DNA of 54,348 nt, taken from NCBI GenBank assembly GCA_002280405.1, contig NCDY01000003.1:1-54348 (forward strand). Direction: 5' to 3'. Below, piece after piece: positions 26,828 through 33,750 of the stretch (position 1 is its first letter; each line of letters opens with the position of its first letter). Made by a program: the position numbers and the translations under genes. Below the pieces are notes generated by a model. That model had not been told where the DNA came from. It worked only from the letters and a program-made list of their open reading frames with translations, and ran no database searches. Origin of the DNA: Rhodobacterales bacterium 32-66-9 (GTDB lineage: Bacteria; Pseudomonadota; Alphaproteobacteria; Rhodobacterales; Rhodobacteraceae).

Positions 26828-27661
26828 ATGACCAGACTTCTTCTCATCATCCTTGACGGCGTGCCTTGGCGGAATTGGCGGCGGCTGTTCGGCAACCTCG
26901 AGGGCTGGGTCGAACAGGGCGAGGCGCGGGTGCGCCGGATGCGGGCGGTGCTGCCTTCGACCTCGGCTTCGTGCTATGCCTCGATCCACACCGGCGTGCC
27001 GCCGCAACAGCATGGGATCTGGGACAATGCGGGCATCCGGCGACTGGAATTTCCCGATGTTTTCAGCGAGTTGACGAAGGCGGGCAAGAAGACCGGCGCC
27101 GTGACGCACAGCTACTGGTCCGAGTTCTTCAACCGCGCGCCCTTCGATGTGGTGCGCGACATCGAATATGACGAACCGGGCGGCCCGATCACGCACGGCC
27201 GGTTTCACACGATGCACGGCTACGGGCATGCAAACCAGATGACGCCTGCGGACTTCGATCTGTTCGGCACCCTCACAAGGTTGTGCGAAATCAGGGAGAT
27301 CGACTACGGCATCCTGCACACCTGCACGCTGGACAGCATGGGGCATCGCTTTTTTCACGACTGCGCCGAGATGGATCATGCCTGCGGCCACCTTGACGCG
27401 ATCCTTGCCCCGTTCCTGCACCGCTGGCGGCAGGCGGGCTATGAGGTGATCGTCACCGCCGACCATGGCCAGGATGCCCGAGGCCATCATGGCGGGACGG
27501 GCGAGGACCAAAGGGACTTTGCGCTTTATTATTTCGGAAACAGTAGCTTGCCGCCCGAAGATGATGTCCTGGATCAACTTTCGCTTGCCCCTTCGATCCT
27601 GACGCGGATGGGGGTTCGGGTGCCCCCGACGATGACCGCTAAGCCCTTTCTGACGGCCTGA
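26828..27661 (+). CDS. Alkaline phosphatase/type I phosphodiesterase superfamily protein
   Basis: LIILDG, LPSTS, DSMGH, TADHG metal-binding motifs. Confidence 0.85.
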   Translation: MTRLLLIILDGVPWRNWRRLFGNLEGWVEQGEARVRRMRAVLPSTSASCYASIHTGVPPQQHGIWDNAGIRRLEFPDVFSELTKAGKKTGAVTHSYWSEFFNRAPFDVVRDIEYDEPGGPITHGRFHTMHGYGHANQMTPADFDLFGTLTRLCEIREIDYGILHTCTLDSMGHRFFHDCAEMDHACGHLDAILAPFLHRWRQAGYEVIVTADHGQDARGHHGGTGEDQRDFALYYFGNSSLPPEDDVLDQLSLAPSILTRMGVRVPPTMTAKPFLTA

Positions 27662-27804: not shown

Positions 27805-29820
27805 ATGGTCCGGTTTGCGGTCAACCTCCTTGGCTCTTGCCGGGTCGCGCGCGTTGCGACCGGGGAAGAGCTTGCGTTCCGGACCCGCAAGACCCGGCTT
27901 TTGCTGGGACTTCTGTTGCTGAGCCCGGGCTGGCGGCTGAACCGCGAGCAGCTTGCATCGCTGCTTTGGGATCCCGCGCCCGAAGCGCTGGCGCGGTCCA
28001 GCCTGCGCCAGGCCCTGCGTGAACTGCGCGAGGTGCTGGGGCCGGACGGCGAAGATGTGGTCGAGGCCGACCGGTTTTCCGTCGCGCTGAACGGTTCGGC
28101 CTTCGATGTCGATGTCCACCGCTTTCGCGAGCTGATCACCGCCGGGGCGCAGGACCCCCGGGCGCTGATCTCGGCTGCCGCGCTGTGGCAGGGAGAGCTT
28201 TTCGGTCCCGCGCAACCCAGCGCCCCGGTCTTCGAGGCCTGGTTGCAGATCGAACGGTCGCAGGTGCGCTCGGTCGTGACCGGCGCCCTGACCGACCAGT
28301 TGGAAAAACTGATCGCAGCCAATGCCTACACGGATACCCGCATCGCCGAAGAGCTGGTGCGGATCGAGCCCAGCCACGAGCTTGCGCATCAGTTCATCAT
28401 GCGGTTCCACGCCCAGCGGGGCGACCAGTCCGCCGCGCTGCGCCAGTTCGGCCTGTTGGAAAAGGCCCTGGCGGAGGAGCTGGACAGCGAGCCGAGCGAG
28501 GCGTCGAACGAGCTTCTGGTTGCGATCAAGTCCGGCGAGGTCTCGCTGCAGCGCCACGCCGCTTTGCCTGCGGTCAGGGTCCCGACCCTGTCGCGCGGCG
28601 GCCCGCCGCGGATCACCATCCGCCCGCCCCTGACCCGATACACCGACGCCAGCAAGGACTATCTCGGCGAAGGCTTTGCTTTCCTGGCCAAATCCTGCCT
28701 GTCGCGCTTTCGCTGCTGGATCGTCATTCCATGGCCTTCGAGCGGTTTCGAATCGGCCACCGCTGTCGATTTCACTGCCGTTGCCCGGGTGATCGACGCG
28801 GATTTCGCGGTGGACTGCGTGCTGGACTGGCGCGCGGGGGACGGCAAGCTGTTCGTGACGCTGGTCGACTGCCGCGATGGCAGCGAGGTCTGGTCCGCGC
28901 TTTATCCGGTCAGGGAACACGATCTGCAGGAGGTCAGTTCCTCGGTCGCGGGGGCGGTTGCGGCCAATCTGGCCAGCCAGGTCAACCACATCACGCTGTT
29001 GCGCCATGCCAGATCCACGCCCGGCAATCCGGTGGCCTATGACCTGTGGCTGAAGGGGCACCAGCTGTCGCGCCTGTGGTCGGCCGAGGCGGATGCAGAG
29101 GCCGAGGCGATGTTCCTCAGGGCCATCGAGCTTGACCCGGGACTTGCCGGGAGCCACGCGAGCCTGGCACAAATCCTGTGCAGCCGCAGCCTGGTCCGCC
29201 CGGGCTATCCCGACCGGCAGCACGATTGCGCGGCGGCCTTCAGACACGCCCGCGAAGCGATCGCGCTGGACCCCTATGATCCGCGCTGTCACATCAGCAT
29301 GGCCTGGACCTGGCTGATCGCCAAATCGGCCGAGCGCGCGAAAACGCATTTCCGCATGGCGGTCGACCTGAATCCGAATGACTCAGAGGCCCTGATTTCC
29401 GCCGCTTGCGGCCTGGCCTTCCTTGGGCACATCGATGATGCCAAGGGCCTTGCCGCGAAAGCCGTGCAGATGAACCCGGTCTATCCCGAGTATTACACCG
29501 ACTATCTGTCAGCCATCCAGTTTCTCGACGCCGACTATCAGACGACGATCGAAACGGTCGAGAAGTGCCTTGAAGGCTTTCCGGACCGCGCGGCCCTTGC
29601 CGCCGCCGCCTGGGCCCTCTTGGGACATACCGCACAGGCAGGGGCCGCCTACCGGTACTTTTCGACGCTGACGGCATCGAAATGGGAGGGCAACGGCCGC
29701 GCGGCAGACGACGATCTTGAAAAATGGCTCATGGAAGTGCTGCCGATCCACTGGCCGAAGGGGCAGCAAAGCCTTCTTTCCGGCCTCAGGCTTGCCCGCA
29801 AGATGGCCGGGCAGGCCTGA
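27805..29820 (+). CDS. BTAD/SARP-type transcriptional regulator with TolB-like and TPR domains
   Basis: REQLASLLW...ARSSLRQALRELR, DVDVHRF, ELAHQFIMR, LDSEPS; C-terminal TPRs (AIELDP, AIALDP, AVDLNP). Confidence 0.82.
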   Translation: MVRFAVNLLGSCRVARVATGEELAFRTRKTRLLLGLLLLSPGWRLNREQLASLLWDPAPEALARSSLRQALRELREVLGPDGEDVVEADRFSVALNGSAFDVDVHRFRELITAGAQDPRALISAAALWQGELFGPAQPSAPVFEAWLQIERSQVRSVVTGALTDQLEKLIAANAYTDTRIAEELVRIEPSHELAHQFIMRFHAQRGDQSAALRQFGLLEKALAEELDSEPSEASNELLVAIKSGEVSLQRHAALPAVRVPTLSRGGPPRITIRPPLTRYTDASKDYLGEGFAFLAKSCLSRFRCWIVIPWPSSGFESATAVDFTAVARVIDADFAVDCVLDWRAGDGKLFVTLVDCRDGSEVWSALYPVREHDLQEVSSSVAGAVAANLASQVNHITLLRHARSTPGNPVAYDLWLKGHQLSRLWSAEADAEAEAMFLRAIELDPGLAGSHASLAQILCSRSLVRPGYPDRQHDCAAAFRHAREAIALDPYDPRCHISMAWTWLIAKSAERAKTHFRMAVDLNPNDSEALISAACGLAFLGHIDDAKGLAAKAVQMNPVYPEYYTDYLSAIQFLDADYQTTIETVEKCLEGFPDRAALAAAAWALLGHTAQAGAAYRYFSTLTASKWEGNGRAADDDLEKWLMEVLPIHWPKGQQSLLSGLRLARKMAGQA

Positions 29821-29833
29821 GGCCAAGCGGTGC

Positions 29834-30214
29834 CTATCGGCACTTGCGCATGAAGTAGCGCGCCAGCAGCACCTTGAAGCGCACCTCCGGCATGTTGCCG
29901 TAGGTCGGCTCGTCGGGGAAGACAGGCGGTGTCTCGAGATCGCCCGCCCATGGCACCTTCACATGCATCCGGTTCGGGGTGTCGTAGACCGGCACGATCT
30001 CGATCGTGTCAGGGATCTCGCCGTTCGGGCCCGCGTCCGGCCCATCATAGCGATAGCCGTTTCGATGCAACCAGCCCCTCGTGTCGGCGTTGAACTTGCG
30101 CCACTCGGATTTCGGCGTGTCCCTGAAGGCGCTTTTGCTGACCTTCATGATCGCCTCGCCGGTCTCTGCCTGATCTGCCACCGAGTTGCTTTTCAGCTTG
30201 ATGAATCCCGCCAT
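29834..30214 (-). CDS. Hypothetical 126-aa protein; candidate NHLP-like precursor/substrate
   Basis: AAGGGGAG RBS; IPDTIEIVPVYDTPNRMHVKVPW segment; ends ARYFMRKCR. Confidence 0.65.
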   Translation of the reverse strand: MAGFIKLKSNSVADQAETGEAIMKVSKSAFRDTPKSEWRKFNADTRGWLHRNGYRYDGPDAGPNGEIPDTIEIVPVYDTPNRMHVKVPWAGDLETPPVFPDEPTYGNMPEVRFKVLLARYFMRKCR

Positions 30215-30362
30215 TGCGCCGTCACTCCCCTTCTAGTTGGTCCGTTTCCGCGTCGGGTCTCTGCCCCAGTGTTCCGCCAGGTTCGTGATGCCAGCGTGAA
30301 ATGGGGAACGGGCGTCCGATTCCGACCTTGATCCCTGCGACCTTCCTGCCTTGAATGTGGGC

Positions 30363-31421
30363 ATGAAGCAAAACCCTGCCGAGATGATCGAACGGCTGAC
30401 ACAGGCCCTGGCAGATGATTTCCGCATCCTGCCGCTGGCGCGGCCCGGCGCGCCGCTGTTCCTGGCCATCGCCCTGCCGACGGATGAAGGCGTGACCGGG
30501 CTGCTGCCAAGGCTTCCGGCCGGGCGCGGGATGACCATGCCGCAAGCGATGCTGGCTGCCGGGGCCGAAGCGCTGGAACTCCGCGCGAGCCTGGCGCAGC
30601 AGCACCTGGCGGAGTTGCAAGGGCTGCCCCGGCAAGATGGTCTGGCCGTGGTCACCGCGACCGATCTTGTGTCGGGTGTGACGGCCCCGGTCCCCGCGCA
30701 AAGCGTCTTTCTCGACTGTGCCGCCGTCCTGGCCGAACCGCTGCGGGACGACGCGGACTCGACAGGATGCGCGACGGGTGCAACCCGTGACAGTGCCGTG
30801 GCGGCGGCGCTTTGGGAATGCGTGGAGCGCGACGCGGTGGCCCTGTGGTGGCATGGCAACCGGCAGGGCGCCGCCGTTGCGCTGGAAGTGATCGACGCGC
30901 AGCAGCCAAGGCTGTTCTGGTGGCTGCACCAGCGTCCCCGCGCGACACGGCTTCTCGACATCACGACGGATATCGGCTTGCCGGTCGTGGTCGCCGTGGC
31001 CGCAGAACCCGATGGCCGGGCGTTGGCGATCGGATCGGCGGCGCGCCCGGTTCTGGCGGATGCGGCACTTGCCGCGGTGACCGAGCTGGTGCAGACCGAG
31101 GCCAGTCTCGACCTCGCGCGCGAGGCTGGCCAGACCGAGGCGCTGGACTGGAGTGCGCGGGCCGCGATGGGCGGACAGCCGCAGTTTCTGCCGGGTCCGG
31201 CGCGGCGCTCCGGGCCGCTGACGGTGCCGGATCTTCTGGCTCGGCTGGCGCATCTTGGCCACCGCGTCCTGGCGGTCGAGATGACGCTTCCCGGCGATCC
31301 GATGCCCACGATGCGCGTGATGGTGCCGGGCCTGTGCGCGATGCGGGGCCGGACCGATACCCCGCGCTTTGCCCGGCTTTGCCCCGGGCAGCCCGGCCTG
31401 AACCTGCCCGAACCCTTTTGA
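30363..31421 (+). CDS. YcaO-like family protein
   Basis: AGRGMT..QA...AGAEALE; DSTGCATG...ALWECVERDAVALWW; LLDITTDIGLPVV; ELVQ; RVMVPGL; Pro-rich C-terminus LNLPEPF. Confidence 0.85.
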   Translation: MKQNPAEMIERLTQALADDFRILPLARPGAPLFLAIALPTDEGVTGLLPRLPAGRGMTMPQAMLAAGAEALELRASLAQQHLAELQGLPRQDGLAVVTATDLVSGVTAPVPAQSVFLDCAAVLAEPLRDDADSTGCATGATRDSAVAAALWECVERDAVALWWHGNRQGAAVALEVIDAQQPRLFWWLHQRPRATRLLDITTDIGLPVVVAVAAEPDGRALAIGSAARPVLADAALAAVTELVQTEASLDLAREAGQTEALDWSARAAMGGQPQFLPGPARRSGPLTVPDLLARLAHLGHRVLAVEMTLPGDPMPTMRVMVPGLCAMRGRTDTPRFARLCPGQPGLNLPEPF

Positions 31422-31444
31422 TCCAGGCCCGCAAGAGGCACCCC

Positions 31445-33136
31445 ATGCCGCAGATCACCAGTCCGCATTCGCTGTTCCGGATCGGCGCCGCAGCCGCGCC
31501 GCAGTCCACGGCCATCGGCGATACGGCATCGCAGTCGCGCTACTGCTACCGCTTTCCCGATCTGGCCAAGGACAGCCGAGCGGGCTGTTTTCGGGGACTG
31601 AGCGCCGCCGCGACCTTCGATCGGCTCAAGGCGTTCGAGAAGGCGACGCGCATTCCGATGAGCAACCTGCCGATGCTGCGGATGCCGCTTCCGGCGGTAT
31701 ACACCTATTTCGGGCAGTTCGTGAACCACGACATCTCGGCCCCGGTGGGCGATGTCATCACCCGTCCGGACCTGCCCGAGCCCGTCGAGGTGATCGGCGC
31801 GTCCGACCTGGCCGGGCTTGAGCGGCGTCGCCGCTTTTCGGTGCCGGTCATCCTGCGGCAGTTCATCAACGAGCAACCCAACCCGCTGTCGCTGGACAGC
31901 CTGTATGGCGAGGGCCCGCTGAGCGCCGATCCCGAGATCAGGGCGCTCTACGATGCGGATGGCATGAGTTTCCGGCTGGGCAGGACACGGCGCGAGGTCG
32001 ATCAGGTCTTCATTGACCAAGAACAGAACCCGGACCTGGTCGCCCATGCCAGGGATGCGCCGGATATCCTGCGGCAGGACGGCAAACCGCTGATCGCGGA
32101 CCGGCGCAATGACGAGAACCTGGTGATCAGCCAGCTCCACCTCGGTCTGCTTTTGTTTCACAACAAGACAGTGGCCGCACTGAAGGACCGGTTTCCGCGC
32201 GATCCGGCCGGATGCTTCGCCCAGGCGCGCCAGCTGGTGCTGCTGCATTATCACTGGCTGATCCTGCATGACTTTCTCGACAAGCTCTTGTCGCCCGCGG
32301 CGCTGCGGACACCTCTGGCGGCCCGGCCGCAGACCCTGCCCGCGGCCAGGACCGTGCCGCTGGAATTCACCACCGCCGCGTTCCGCTTTGGCCATTCGAT
32401 GGTTGGCTCGGCCTATGACTTCAACGCCAATTTCGGGACCGGGAGCCGGTTGGGCAACCGGGGCGCGTCGCTGCAGCAGCTGTTCCAGTTCACCACGCAT
32501 CGCAACATGGGCAGTTCCGCCGCCGAGACGCTGCAGTTGCCGGATCACTGGGTCATCGACTGGAACCGGATGAGCCGGCCATCAGGTGCGGCCGGTGGTG
32601 GCGGGGCCGAGAGAATCGACCTGACCTTTGCCAGCGACATGCTGAACGCAATCGGTGCATCAGACGTCGCGGCGCATGGCTCGATCCTGTTTCGCAACAT
32701 CATGCGCGGCTTTCATCGCCGCATTCCGTTCGGCCAGGTGCTGGCCCGGGAATACGGGGTGCGGGTGCTGGACAGCGGCGACATCGCGGCGGCCCTGCCG
32801 CCGGGGTTCATCGATGGACCCGGGTCGCCGCGTCTGCCGGACTTTGCGGCGCGCAACGGGCTTTTGCAGGAAACCCCGGCCTGGCTCTACTTCCTGTGCG
32901 AGGCGCACATCCGTGAAAGCGGCGAGCGGATCGGCGAATCGGCAAGCCACCTGATCGCCGACACGATCACCGGGCTGATGCGCCACATGCCGCATTCGGT
33001 CCTGAACCATGACGGCGGGACCTGGCATCCCGATCAGACCCCGTTTCCAACGCAGCCGGGCGGGCTGACGACGATCGGCGCGCTGCTGCAGTTCGCGGTC
33101 AAGGGCACCGGCGCAGAAGAGGTCGGGCCAGGGTGA
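31445..33136 (+). CDS. Heme peroxidase, animal (peroxidase-cyclooxygenase) superfamily
   Basis: YTYFGQFVNHDI (distal His), DRRNDENLVISQLH (distal Arg), EFTTAAFRFGHSMV (proximal His), TPAWLYFLCEA. Confidence 0.87.
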   Translation: MPQITSPHSLFRIGAAAAPQSTAIGDTASQSRYCYRFPDLAKDSRAGCFRGLSAAATFDRLKAFEKATRIPMSNLPMLRMPLPAVYTYFGQFVNHDISAPVGDVITRPDLPEPVEVIGASDLAGLERRRRFSVPVILRQFINEQPNPLSLDSLYGEGPLSADPEIRALYDADGMSFRLGRTRREVDQVFIDQEQNPDLVAHARDAPDILRQDGKPLIADRRNDENLVISQLHLGLLLFHNKTVAALKDRFPRDPAGCFAQARQLVLLHYHWLILHDFLDKLLSPAALRTPLAARPQTLPAARTVPLEFTTAAFRFGHSMVGSAYDFNANFGTGSRLGNRGASLQQLFQFTTHRNMGSSAAETLQLPDHWVIDWNRMSRPSGAAGGGGAERIDLTFASDMLNAIGASDVAAHGSILFRNIMRGFHRRIPFGQVLAREYGVRVLDSGDIAAALPPGFIDGPGSPRLPDFAARNGLLQETPAWLYFLCEAHIRESGERIGESASHLIADTITGLMRHMPHSVLNHDGGTWHPDQTPFPTQPGGLTTIGALLQFAVKGTGAEEVGPG

Positions 33137-33261
33137 TCCGATGGGTACGGGCTGGACATTCCGGCGGTTTCGCCGCTAAGACGCTGCGACGCGCGGGATG
33201 CGCGCGGCGTGCGGTCGCGTGCCGCCGCCCCCCATGACGACCTTGTGGAGAAGCCGAGGCC

Positions 33262-33750
33262 ATGACCGTCGATTTCCTGACCTCCGGCCCGAAGTCGCGG
33301 CTGGTCCGGCGACTGGCGCTGGGTCTTTTCCTGCTGCCGGTTGCGGCCTGCGCGCCCTCGTTCAGCAAGATGCAGCTATACCCGCTGCAGGGCGAGATTG
33401 CCGACTCGGATCCGACCCTGGTGATCCGCGCCACGGCGAAGAACACGACCGGCACCTCTGGCGCCCTGTCGTTCCGGCTGCCGGGGCGGGGCAAGTGCAC
33501 CGGCACCTGGAGCTCGCTGACCCCGCGCACGGTGTCGAATTCCAAGGGGCTGGCGCTGACCTGGAAAAAGACCGGGGGCGAGGTCGGGACCGCGCGGGAA
33601 ACCGTGGCGGGCGTCAACAACGGCGAGATCTATGCGGTCTGTGAAGATGGCACCCGGGTGCAGGGCACCTTCGTCATCGGTTCCGGCACGGCCAGCGGCA
33701 CCGGGCAGGCGTCCGACACCAATGGCAACGTCTACAAGCTGTTGTTCTGA
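33262..33750 (+). CDS. Hypothetical lipoprotein
   Basis: RR-hydrophobic-VAAC lipobox; beta-rich body ending GTGQASDTNGNVYKLLF. Confidence 0.7.
   Translation: MTVDFLTSGPKSRLVRRLALGLFLLPVAACAPSFSKMQLYPLQGEIADSDPTLVIRATAKNTTGTSGALSFRLPGRGKCTGTWSSLTPRTVSNSKGLALTWKKTGGEVGTARETVAGVNNGEIYAVCEDGTRVQGTFVIGSGTASGTGQASDTNGNVYKLLF

What the first reader, a model, noticed from the sequence alone, without database searches (positions are those of the whole stretch)
27805..33750. Candidate new RiPP/protein-modification system: YcaO, animal-type heme peroxidase, NHLP-like small protein and BTAD-TPR regulator
Seen: between the transport operon and aroB sits a compact block with a BTAD/TPR regulator (+), a 126-aa protein (-) divergent from a YcaO gene (+), a heme peroxidase 23 nt after the YcaO stop, and a lipoprotein. 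Established: YcaO enzymes phosphorylate peptide backbone amides with ATP to make azolines, thioamides or amidines, usually with an E1/ThiF-like partner, TfuA or a flavin dehydrogenase; none of these is present here. Peroxidase-cyclooxygenase enzymes do Tyr cross-linking, halogenation or fatty-acid dioxygenation, and I know of no characterised YcaO pathway using one. Inference: both enzymes act on the small protein under control of the adjacent regulator.
Basis: partly seen in the sequence, partly recalled or inferred. Interest (0 to 1): 0.9.

Follow-up and report, generated by a model that had tools for sequence, protein, structure and literature searches.

The report
YcaO–haem peroxidase cysteine-tail modification cassette
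Four genes that travel together in many Alphaproteobacteria encode a small protein ending in cysteine, a YcaO enzyme that likely closes that cysteine into a ring, a haem peroxidase that likely oxidises the same tail, and their predicted activator; this would add an animal-type peroxidase to the tools of ribosomal peptide chemistry.

Summary
Observation confirmed. Regulator, 126-aa protein, YcaO and peroxidase form one mobile unit; the lipoprotein does not belong (present in 5 of 5 cassette-free relatives). In 44 close loci regulator and YcaO occur in 43 each and the peroxidase in 38; five misses are contig ends, one is real. In 32 distant cassettes found through YcaO or regulator, a small protein with Cys second or third from the end is always present; the peroxidase is in 20. 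The small protein is a remote NHLP relative (hhalign 92%) without double-Gly site or variable core. Most likely YcaO makes a thiazoline at Cys125 and the peroxidase oxidises the tail (inferred, untested). Ten paper searches (six aimed at novelty) found no description. The scan had noted this cassette before in two other genomes.

The parts
27805..29820 (+). SARP-type regulator: winged helix + BTAD, middle domain, TPR repeats (671 aa)
   Evidence: PF03704 E 1e-14, PF00486 weak, TPR; AfsR SARP 8HVR E 6e-6; present in 43 of 44 close loci; defines a clean clade of 23 hits in 401 genomes, all 23 beside a YcaO and a Cys-tailed small protein
29834..30214 (-). 126-aa folded NHLP-related protein, the likely substrate
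   Evidence: 115 homologues; AF2 pLDDT 86.9; hhalign to NHLP leaders 92%, score 40 vs shuffled maximum 16.5; best of 48,161 chains is proteusin precursor 8TB1, Z 3.7, weak
29837..29857 (-). C-terminal tail YFMRKCR; Cys125 (codon 29840-29842) is the predicted site of modification
   Evidence: Cys penultimate in 115 of 115 homologues; only Cys of this protein, no Ser/Thr in the last 22 residues; Cys second or third from the end in 32 of 32 distant cassettes
30268..30273 (-). -10-like hexamer of the predicted promoter of the small gene
   Evidence: AATAGT-like consensus 9-10 bp from the repeat in most close loci; inferred, no start site mapped
30284..30301 (.). Direct repeat CGTGA-N6-CGTGAA (11-bp period), predicted binding site of the regulator
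   Evidence: invariant columns in 32 aligned spacers; present in 43 of 43 close loci with upstream DNA; only strict match in the own genome; geometry near that of SARP promoters (PMC10936776)
30328..30356 (+). TTGA-17 bp-AAT promoter-like signal 6 nt before the YcaO ATG (predicted leaderless transcript of ycaO-peroxidase)
   Evidence: CTTG and AAT conserved across spacers; inferred
30363..31421 (+). Stand-alone YcaO (352 aa), predicted Cys cyclodehydratase
   Evidence: PF02624 E 2e-33; nearest solved structures TruD, LynD, MusD E 1e-13 to 3e-11; E69, E72, E152, E155, E241 kept in 44-45 of 45 cassette YcaOs, S133 and C-terminal LPEPF in this one
31445..33136 (+). Peroxidase-cyclooxygenase-superfamily haem protein (563 aa)
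   Evidence: PF03098 E 9e-11; DdPoxA and myeloperoxidase hits; Q91, H95, R221, E224, H317, N418 present, ester Asp replaced by Asn

Best explanation
The four genes are one conserved, mobile unit in which the YcaO likely uses ATP to close the single cysteine of the small protein's C-terminal tail into a thiazoline, the haem peroxidase likely oxidises that tail with peroxide (most simply thiazoline to thiazole, in place of the missing flavin dehydrogenase), and the regulator is predicted to switch on the small gene from the 11-bp repeat. Shown: co-occurrence and joint movement, intact ATP/Mg and haem residues, invariant terminal Cys, NHLP homology, the repeat, the natural peroxidase-precursor fusion. 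Inferred: substrate relationship (about 0.8), thiazoline (about 0.6), peroxidase acting on the tail in some way (about 0.6), thiazole as its product (about 0.35), regulator binding the repeat (about 0.8). The folded NHLP part would serve as the docking handle, since no E1/RRE partner is encoded. No exporter or protease is part of the close-family unit, so the product would be a modified intracellular protein or a short tail cut off by host proteases.
For: Co-occurrence: 43/44 regulator, 43/44 YcaO, 38/44 peroxidase; 22 of these 44 loci lie away from aroB with the same gene order. Among 54 genomes of the genus, 26 have the small gene, 25 of them the YcaO orthologue and 26 the peroxidase (one partial at a contig end) next to it; of the 28 without it none has this YcaO and one has a peroxidase fragment at a contig end. 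Six loci fetched for their regulator score (three of them already had a YcaO hit): 6/6 YcaO and Cys-tail, 5/6 peroxidase; 23 next-tier regulators: 0/23 with the cassette. 45 cassette YcaOs form one side of a branch against 27 other YcaOs (SH-aLRT 90, quick tree). YcaO, regulator and peroxidase distances correlate across 17 cassettes (rho 0.54-0.66, 0/2000 permutations; shared descent, not proof of contact). Nearest structures are Cys heterocyclases; S133 matches McbD Thr148 and the Pro-rich end matches azoline formers (PMC6395948; PMC8442711). Fusion family: 72 clusters, 71 with the peroxidase domain, 70 with Cys in the last three residues; fused and split forms both lie with regulator and YcaO. 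A haem enzyme aromatising a YcaO-made C-terminal thiazoline has a precedent in BotCYP (PMC10591300).
Against: No activity or binding was tested. The peroxidase is absent from 12 of 32 distant cassettes and from L132; RTX proteins, peptidases or a vanadium-bromoperoxidase homologue lie nearby instead. Cassette peroxidases are not one clade (2 changes, FastTree). 3 of 5 metagenomic fusion loci show no regulator or YcaO in the 1.2-3.3 kb held on each side. The fused peroxidases lack the distal Arg (64/64 aligned) and 12 of 63 the distal His. This YcaO has Thr for the Asn of the SNG motif and Ala four residues before E241, where several other YcaOs have Arg/Lys; many distant cassette YcaOs have lost the Ser/Thr and the Pro-rich end. 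The window's small protein and the fused domain do not match each other directly (hhalign 4.8%); both match NHLP. Seven small proteins of AC-regulator cassettes match neither (0.1-15%). Some copies are broken (L046, L049, L071, L115). I know no peroxidase of this family that dehydrogenates a thiazoline (own knowledge).
Confidence: 0.45

Rival explanations
1. Signalling switch: the small protein is a ligand of the regulator's TPR domain; YcaO (and, where present, the peroxidase reading H2O2) sets the chemical state of the tail and so the regulator's activity. Neighbouring peroxidases, RTX proteins and peptidases are outputs.
For: Regulator, small gene and YcaO are the constant core; the fourth gene varies. 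The small gene abuts the regulator gene in nearly all orders, often with overlapping stops. The regulator is the most constrained gene (dN/dS about 0.1). No exporter. Related TPR regulators also flank TfuA-type YcaO clusters. TPR domains bind C-terminal tails (own knowledge).
Against: Only one strict box in the (81.5% complete) genome, so no wider regulon is seen. The fusion ties the Cys-tailed domain to the peroxidase, not to the regulator.
Confidence: 0.2
2. The peroxidase is a co-regulated enzyme with its own substrate (iodide, thiocyanate or peroxide removal) and the small protein is at most its accessory subunit; only YcaO modifies the tail.
For: Best structure hit DdPoxA has one ester bond through Glu and oxidises iodide and thiocyanate fast (PMC5787809 abstract); this protein has the same pattern (Asn for Asp, Glu kept). 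A vanadium-bromoperoxidase homologue (E 3e-87) lies by four related cassettes. The close-family peroxidases group with stand-alone ones.
Against: Fusion to the Cys-tailed domain in 72 clusters. The ester Asp is lost in 32 of 32 cassette peroxidases but kept in 11 of 11 aligned stand-alone ones, and the ester Glu is kept in only 9 of 32, which points away from halide chemistry as the family's job. The vanadium homologues face the YcaO gene from the other strand and lack the first-motif Lys.
Confidence: 0.17
3. Same enzymes, other chemistry: YcaO phosphorylates a tail amide to cut off the last residue, form an amidine with Arg/Lys or a thioamide from the Cys sulphur; or the peroxidase makes a Tyr120-Cys125 or inter-chain cross-link.
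For: MusD is among the three nearest structures (its peptidase activity is recalled). The tail is rich in Arg/Lys. Tyr five residues before the Cys is invariant in the close family and in the fusions but for a few His. Stand-alone YcaOs with Pro-rich ends can be amidine formers (PMC8442711).
Against: Only the Cys is common to all tails. The Tyr is missing in 7 of 20 distant peroxidase cassettes and present in 4 of 12 without peroxidase. No TfuA.
Confidence: 0.15
4. Chance neighbours or a decaying island.
For: A few copies carry frameshifts.
Against: Co-occurrence, joint movement, purifying selection and a conserved operator.
Confidence: 0.03

Closest known systems
Bottromycin maturation (stand-alone YcaOs plus the haem enzyme BotCYP)
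   Same: Stand-alone YcaO without E1 partner; a haem enzyme, not a flavoenzyme, aromatises a C-terminal thiazoline (PMC10591300 passages).
   Different: BotCYP is a P450 acting after follower removal; here a peroxidase-cyclooxygenase-family protein, an N-terminal folded NHLP handle, one residue after the Cys, no radical SAM methylases, hydrolase or exporter.
NHLP/proteusin TOMMs (TIGR03793 leaders; cyanobactin-type D proteins TruD/LynD; MprE)
   Same: NHLP-related folded leader; YcaO closest to TruD/LynD/MusD.
   Different: No TIGR03793 hit, no double-Gly site, conserved one-Cys tail instead of a hypervariable core, no fused or separate E1/RRE domain, no SagB, no peptidase-transporter.
Borosins (enzyme fused to its own precursor, with split forms; recalled, SonA seen only as a weak structure row)
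   Same: Fused and split enzyme-precursor forms coexist.
   Different: The enzyme is a haem peroxidase homologue, not a methyltransferase, and a YcaO lies alongside.
Haft's 'putative peptide modification system' (TIGR04510 cyclase-TPR; its NHLP-related precursor and SagB-like partner are recalled)
   Same: TPR-bearing regulator-like protein beside an NHLP-related small gene and a modifying enzyme; weak TIGR04510 hits, E 1e-3 here and 2e-9 for an AC-bearing relative.
   Different: Far below the cut-off; enzymes here are YcaO and a peroxidase.
SARP activators (AfsR)
   Same: Winged helix + BTAD; direct repeats of 11-bp period just upstream of a -10 element (PMC10936776 passages).
   Different: No NOD domain seen; in Alphaproteobacteria; spacing to the -10-like hexamer is 9-10 bp by my reading, not 8.
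DdPoxA / lactoperoxidase-type haem peroxidases
   Same: Distal Gln, His, Arg, proximal His-Asn; one possible ester link through Glu.
   Different: No signal peptide by eye; ester residues lost across the cassette family; fused to a precursor in one branch.

Membership tests
YcaO superfamily (PF02624) | Profile match and Mg/ATP-binding glutamates | tested here: met
   116.6 bits vs cut-off 25.7; E69, E72, E152 45/45, E155 and E241 44/45 cassette YcaOs
Azoline-forming YcaO | Active-site Ser/Thr (McbD Thr148) and Pro-rich C-terminus | tested here: inconclusive
   S133 and ...LPEPF present in the window's enzyme; not a full PxPxP; feature is also found in an amidine former
Azoline-forming YcaO | ATP-dependent loss of water from a Cys/Ser/Thr substrate | not testable with these tools
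   needs MS
TOMM/LAP | E1-like C protein/RRE in the cluster | tested here: not met
   no such ORF in the block or in close loci; rest of genome not searched for it
TOMM/LAP | Cys/Ser/Thr-rich core | tested here: not met
   one Cys, no Ser/Thr in last 22 residues
Thioamitides | TfuA partner | tested here: not met
   no PF07812 match in the 81.5% complete genome; cassette YcaOs lie apart from the TfuA-linked ones
NHLP/proteusin precursors | Homology to the nitrile hydratase leader fold | tested here: met
   hhalign 92%, E 6e-7, 43 columns; 60 column shuffles max score 16.5 vs 40.2; reversed 14.6. Structure support weak: 8TB1 Z 3.7, rmsd 4.3, 71 aligned
NHLP/proteusin precursors | TIGR03793 score over cut-off | tested here: not met
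   no NCBIfam hit at E<=1
NHLP/proteusin precursors | Double-Gly cleavage site followed by hypervariable core | tested here: not met
   GG in last 60 residues of 12 of 111 homologues; tail is the most conserved part
Peroxidase-cyclooxygenase superfamily | Distal Gln/His, R-x-x-E, proximal His with Asn | tested here: met
   Q91, H95, R221-N-D-E224, H317, N418 against signatures in PMC4420034
Peroxidase-cyclooxygenase superfamily (halide-oxidising families) | Two haem ester links (Asp and Glu) | tested here: not met
   Asp replaced in 32 of 32 cassette proteins; Glu kept in 9 of 32 incl. this one
Fatty-acid dioxygenases/cyclooxygenases | Catalytic Tyr three residues before the proximal His (recalled motif) | tested here: not met
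   sequence is FRFGH
SARP regulators | Winged helix + BTAD | tested here: met
SARP regulators | Binds 11-bp-period repeats 8 bp from the -10 element | tested here: inconclusive
   repeat in 43/43 loci, 9-10 bp from a -10-like hexamer; binding itself not testable
Bottromycins | N-terminal core with follower, macroamidine, radical SAM methylases | tested here: not met
   none in the block

The most novel reading that the evidence does not exclude
A new class of ribosomal protein modification in which an animal-type haem peroxidase, in one branch fused to its own substrate like a borosin, oxidises a YcaO-made ring at a protein's last cysteine, and the modified folded protein is itself the signal read by the TPR domain of its own SARP activator: a peroxide-responsive post-translational switch spread across Alphaproteobacteria.
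Probability: 0.2. Interest if true: 0.93.

Novelty: new variant of a known kind. Interest (0 to 1): 0.8.

Why it matters
It would give a substrate to two orphan groups at once: stand-alone proteobacterial YcaOs, whose substrates were unknown (PMC4603692 passages), and short bacterial peroxidases of the peroxidase-cyclooxygenase superfamily, for one family of which the physiological role was called completely unknown (PMC4420034 passages). A peroxidase as peptide-tailoring enzyme would be new chemistry, and a YcaO that acts on one C-terminal cysteine without an E1 partner could be a compact tool for end-labelling proteins. The system is small (four genes), occurs in cultured strains named (Tabrizicola thermarum, T. 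flagellatus, Rhodobacter calidifons) and is testable by intact mass in one experiment.

Tried and rejected
Foldseek on the small-protein model: no match at E<=0.001; sequence-profile search of PDB: only ribosomal L38 rows at E 0.08-0.3, taken as chance. ESM Atlas: nitrile-hydratase-like clusters at 0.75-0.79, under the 0.9 mark, a lead only; the 453-aa neighbour of the vanadium enzyme gave a YjiT-like lead at 0.86, not followed. Expression: one lake metatranscriptome holds pieces of all four genes but also of flanking genes at similar depth, so DNA carry-over is not excluded; no evidence either way. Careful YcaO tree did not finish in two runs; only the quick tree is cited. The fusion's AlphaFold model (pLDDT 77.7, pTM 0.84) matches the peroxidase fold; the high pTM would fit a docked C-terminal domain, but no error map was given, so I do not count it. 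The 411-, 453- and 473-aa neighbours of peroxidase-free cassettes are unrelated to each other. Rejected: lipoprotein as a part; dioxygenase chemistry; Tyr cross-link as the family-wide chemistry; the TCACG box as universal (8 of 44 upstream regions of distant cassettes against 0.6 expected). One paper wanted for YcaO residue numbering was not held, so the weight of the Arg-to-Ala change before E241 is left open.
Full report
Observation. G+C is level with the rest of the window. The genome (81.5% complete) has one copy of each gene, no TfuA and no SagB over the cut-off. Close relatives are named Tabrizicola.

The unit. Of 54 genomes of the genus, 26 have the small gene; 25 of these have the YcaO orthologue and all 26 the peroxidase beside it (the misses and one partial are contig ends); of the 28 without it none has this YcaO and one has a peroxidase fragment at a contig end. 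A scan of 185,579 species genomes gave 44 loci, partly the same genomes: regulator 43, YcaO 43, peroxidase 38; five peroxidase misses are contig ends and one (L132) is a true absence. The lipoprotein is in 18 of 44, always with aroB, and in 5 of 5 cassette-free genomes tested: it is not a part. All four core genes are under purifying selection.

The wider family. Searching the same 400 genomes of the order with YcaO, peroxidase and regulator profiles, and 400 of the class with a wider YcaO profile, I fetched the neighbourhoods of selected hits, not of all (100 regions and part of 34-35). Thirty-two distant cassettes emerged, in at least eight gene orders. All 32 have regulator, stand-alone YcaO and a small protein with Cys second or third from its end; for about ten of them the small ORF was picked with a Cys filter, for the rest by a codon model. 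Twenty carry the peroxidase, twelve do not. The regulator profile gives 23 hits at E<=1e-159, then a gap to 1e-100; all 23 are cassettes (20 with peroxidase), while 0 of 23 next-tier hits fetched are. Ten of the 23 were in the profile's training set, so the cleaner test is the six loci fetched afterwards: 6/6 YcaO and Cys-tail, 5/6 peroxidase (three of the six already had a YcaO hit). Cassette YcaOs form one side of a branch against 27 others from my own loci (SH-aLRT 90, quick tree, long branches).

The small protein. It folds with confidence (pLDDT 86.9). A profile of its family matches a profile of 14 TIGR03793 hits at 92% over 43 columns, score 40.2 against a maximum of 16.5 in 60 shuffles, and the best of 48,161 solved chains is the proteusin precursor 8TB1, though at a weak Z of 3.7. 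Cys125 is the only cyclisable residue of the tail. The 115 of 115 count is partly built into the search; the distant cassettes are the independent evidence. A full profile search of 1.84 billion representatives returned only 27 proteins, so the close family is small. Homology between small proteins of different cassette types is patchy.

YcaO. Five Mg/ATP glutamates are kept in 44-45 of 45 cassette enzymes at about 25% identity. Nearest solved relatives are TruD, LynD and MusD. The window's enzyme has the Ser equivalent to McbD Thr148 and ends in LPEPF (PMC6395948 passages). It has Thr for Asn in the SNG motif and Ala four residues before E241; how much this matters I could not check.

Peroxidase. 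Distal Gln and His and proximal His are kept in 32 of 32 cassette proteins, the distal Arg in 31. The ester Asp of the G-Q-x-x-D-H-D signature (PMC4420034 passages) is lost in 32 of 32, but kept in 11 of 11 aligned stand-alone relatives; the ester Glu survives in 9 of 32, including this one. FRFGH lacks the dioxygenase Tyr (motif recalled). The tail Tyr does not track the peroxidase: absent in 7 of 20 cassettes with it, present in 4 of 12 without. This points to haem-dependent oxidation of something other than fatty acids, and away from chloride or bromide; iodide/thiocyanate oxidation as in DdPoxA (abstract) stays open. Cassette peroxidases need two changes on a FastTree.

Fusion. L189 encodes peroxidase and Cys-tailed domain in one 663-aa ORF between regulator and YcaO neighbours. 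It is a family: 72 clusters, 71 with the peroxidase domain, 70 with terminal Cys. The fused domain matches NHLP at 85% and the free small proteins of six cassettes at 95-96%, but not the window's family directly (4.8%). Of 17 metagenomic loci, 5 are fused (regulator beside 2, YcaO beside 1; none seen in 3 short contigs), 9 are split (regulator 9, peroxidase 7, YcaO 5), 2 have domain plus YcaO, 1 is a fragment. The fused peroxidases lack the distal Arg and 12 of 63 the distal His.

Control. The spacer between small gene and ycaO is 143-148 bp in most loci and holds CGTGA-N6-CGTGAA in 43 of 43, also in the peroxidase-free L132. It lies 9-10 bp before a -10-like hexamer facing the small gene, near the SARP rule of 11-bp repeats 8 bp from the -10 element (PMC10936776 passages). 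It is the only strict match in this genome; the loose pattern occurs 3 times against 6 expected. A related repeat precedes 8 of 44 units in distant cassettes (0.6 expected). A TTGA-17-AAT signal 6 nt before the ycaO start suggests a leaderless transcript.

Mechanism. I commit to: activator on; YcaO docks on the NHLP fold and closes Cys125 to a thiazoline; the peroxidase oxidises the tail, most simply to a thiazole, as the haem enzyme BotCYP does in bottromycin (PMC10591300 passages; comparison first seen in notes e1-5279788 and e1-3894523). Confidence 0.45. The peroxidase is an optional tailoring step. The main rival is a switch in which the modified protein binds the regulator's TPR domain; the complex could not be predicted.

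Literature. Ten searches of the held library; six aimed at novelty: YcaO+peroxidase+RiPP, 7 papers, 6 listed, two checked by passages and unrelated, four seen as listings only; YcaO+'heme peroxidase', 0; YcaO/NHLP/alphaproteobacteria/TPR, 2 phazolicin listings; An_peroxidase+precursor peptide, 0; YcaO+vanadium haloperoxidase, 1 unrelated listing; NHLP+peroxidase, 1 review, passages unrelated. PMC4603692, PMC8442711 and PMC10783134 have no mention of peroxidase in the main text. Most subscription papers are not held and no supplements were read; YcaO network tables in such supplements could list these clusters. The scan itself had noted this cassette in two other genomes; those notes, as shown to me, did not mention the fusion, the repeat or the peroxidase-free forms (one search found nothing for those words).

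Verdict. Real, conserved, apparently undescribed; a new variant of YcaO/NHLP ribosomal modification with a likely new tailoring enzyme. Interest 0.8.

Noticed in passing
L208-L214 (7 Rhodobacteraceae genomes), also L150, L227: A separate recurring cluster: YcaO + TfuA-like gene + about 430-aa metalloprotease-like gene + 170-aa protein ending in 5-7 tandem SGAKV/SGARV repeats + adenylate-cyclase/TPR regulator; looks like a thioamide RiPP system. About 24 regulator hits lie within about 6 kb of such YcaO hits in the 400-genome sample.
   Followed up: partly
L083:9118-11115, L084:9025-11100, L085:3586-5667, L225: Vanadium-bromoperoxidase homologue (E 3e-87 to 5LPC) with altered vanadate motifs, plus a 453-aa unknown, facing the YcaO of a related peroxidase-free cassette.
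   Followed up: partly
L189:5636-7627; P0141-P0212: Peroxidase-precursor fusion family (Amaricoccus and others) with degenerate distal pocket; deserves its own study.
   Followed up: partly
L140, L142: BTAD regulator + 136-aa unknown protein + YcaO + TfuA-like gene, without a terminal Cys.
   Followed up: no
window 33262-33750: Lipoprotein-like ORF with no Pfam family, conserved at 69-91% in the genus, next to aroB in most genomes.
   Followed up: partly
L053-L064, L200: Stand-alone animal-type haem peroxidases are common in Rhodobacteraceae (94 of 401 genomes match the profile) and keep both ester residues.
   Followed up: partly
L075-L079, L134, L135, L193: Trypsin-like, M74, S8, M23 and amidase-like genes next to distant cassettes; possible leader-cutting enzymes or regulated outputs.
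   Followed up: no
window 26828-27661: Alkaline-phosphatase-superfamily gene (PF01663) closing the ABC operon; goes with the chromosomal site, not the cassette.
   Followed up: yes
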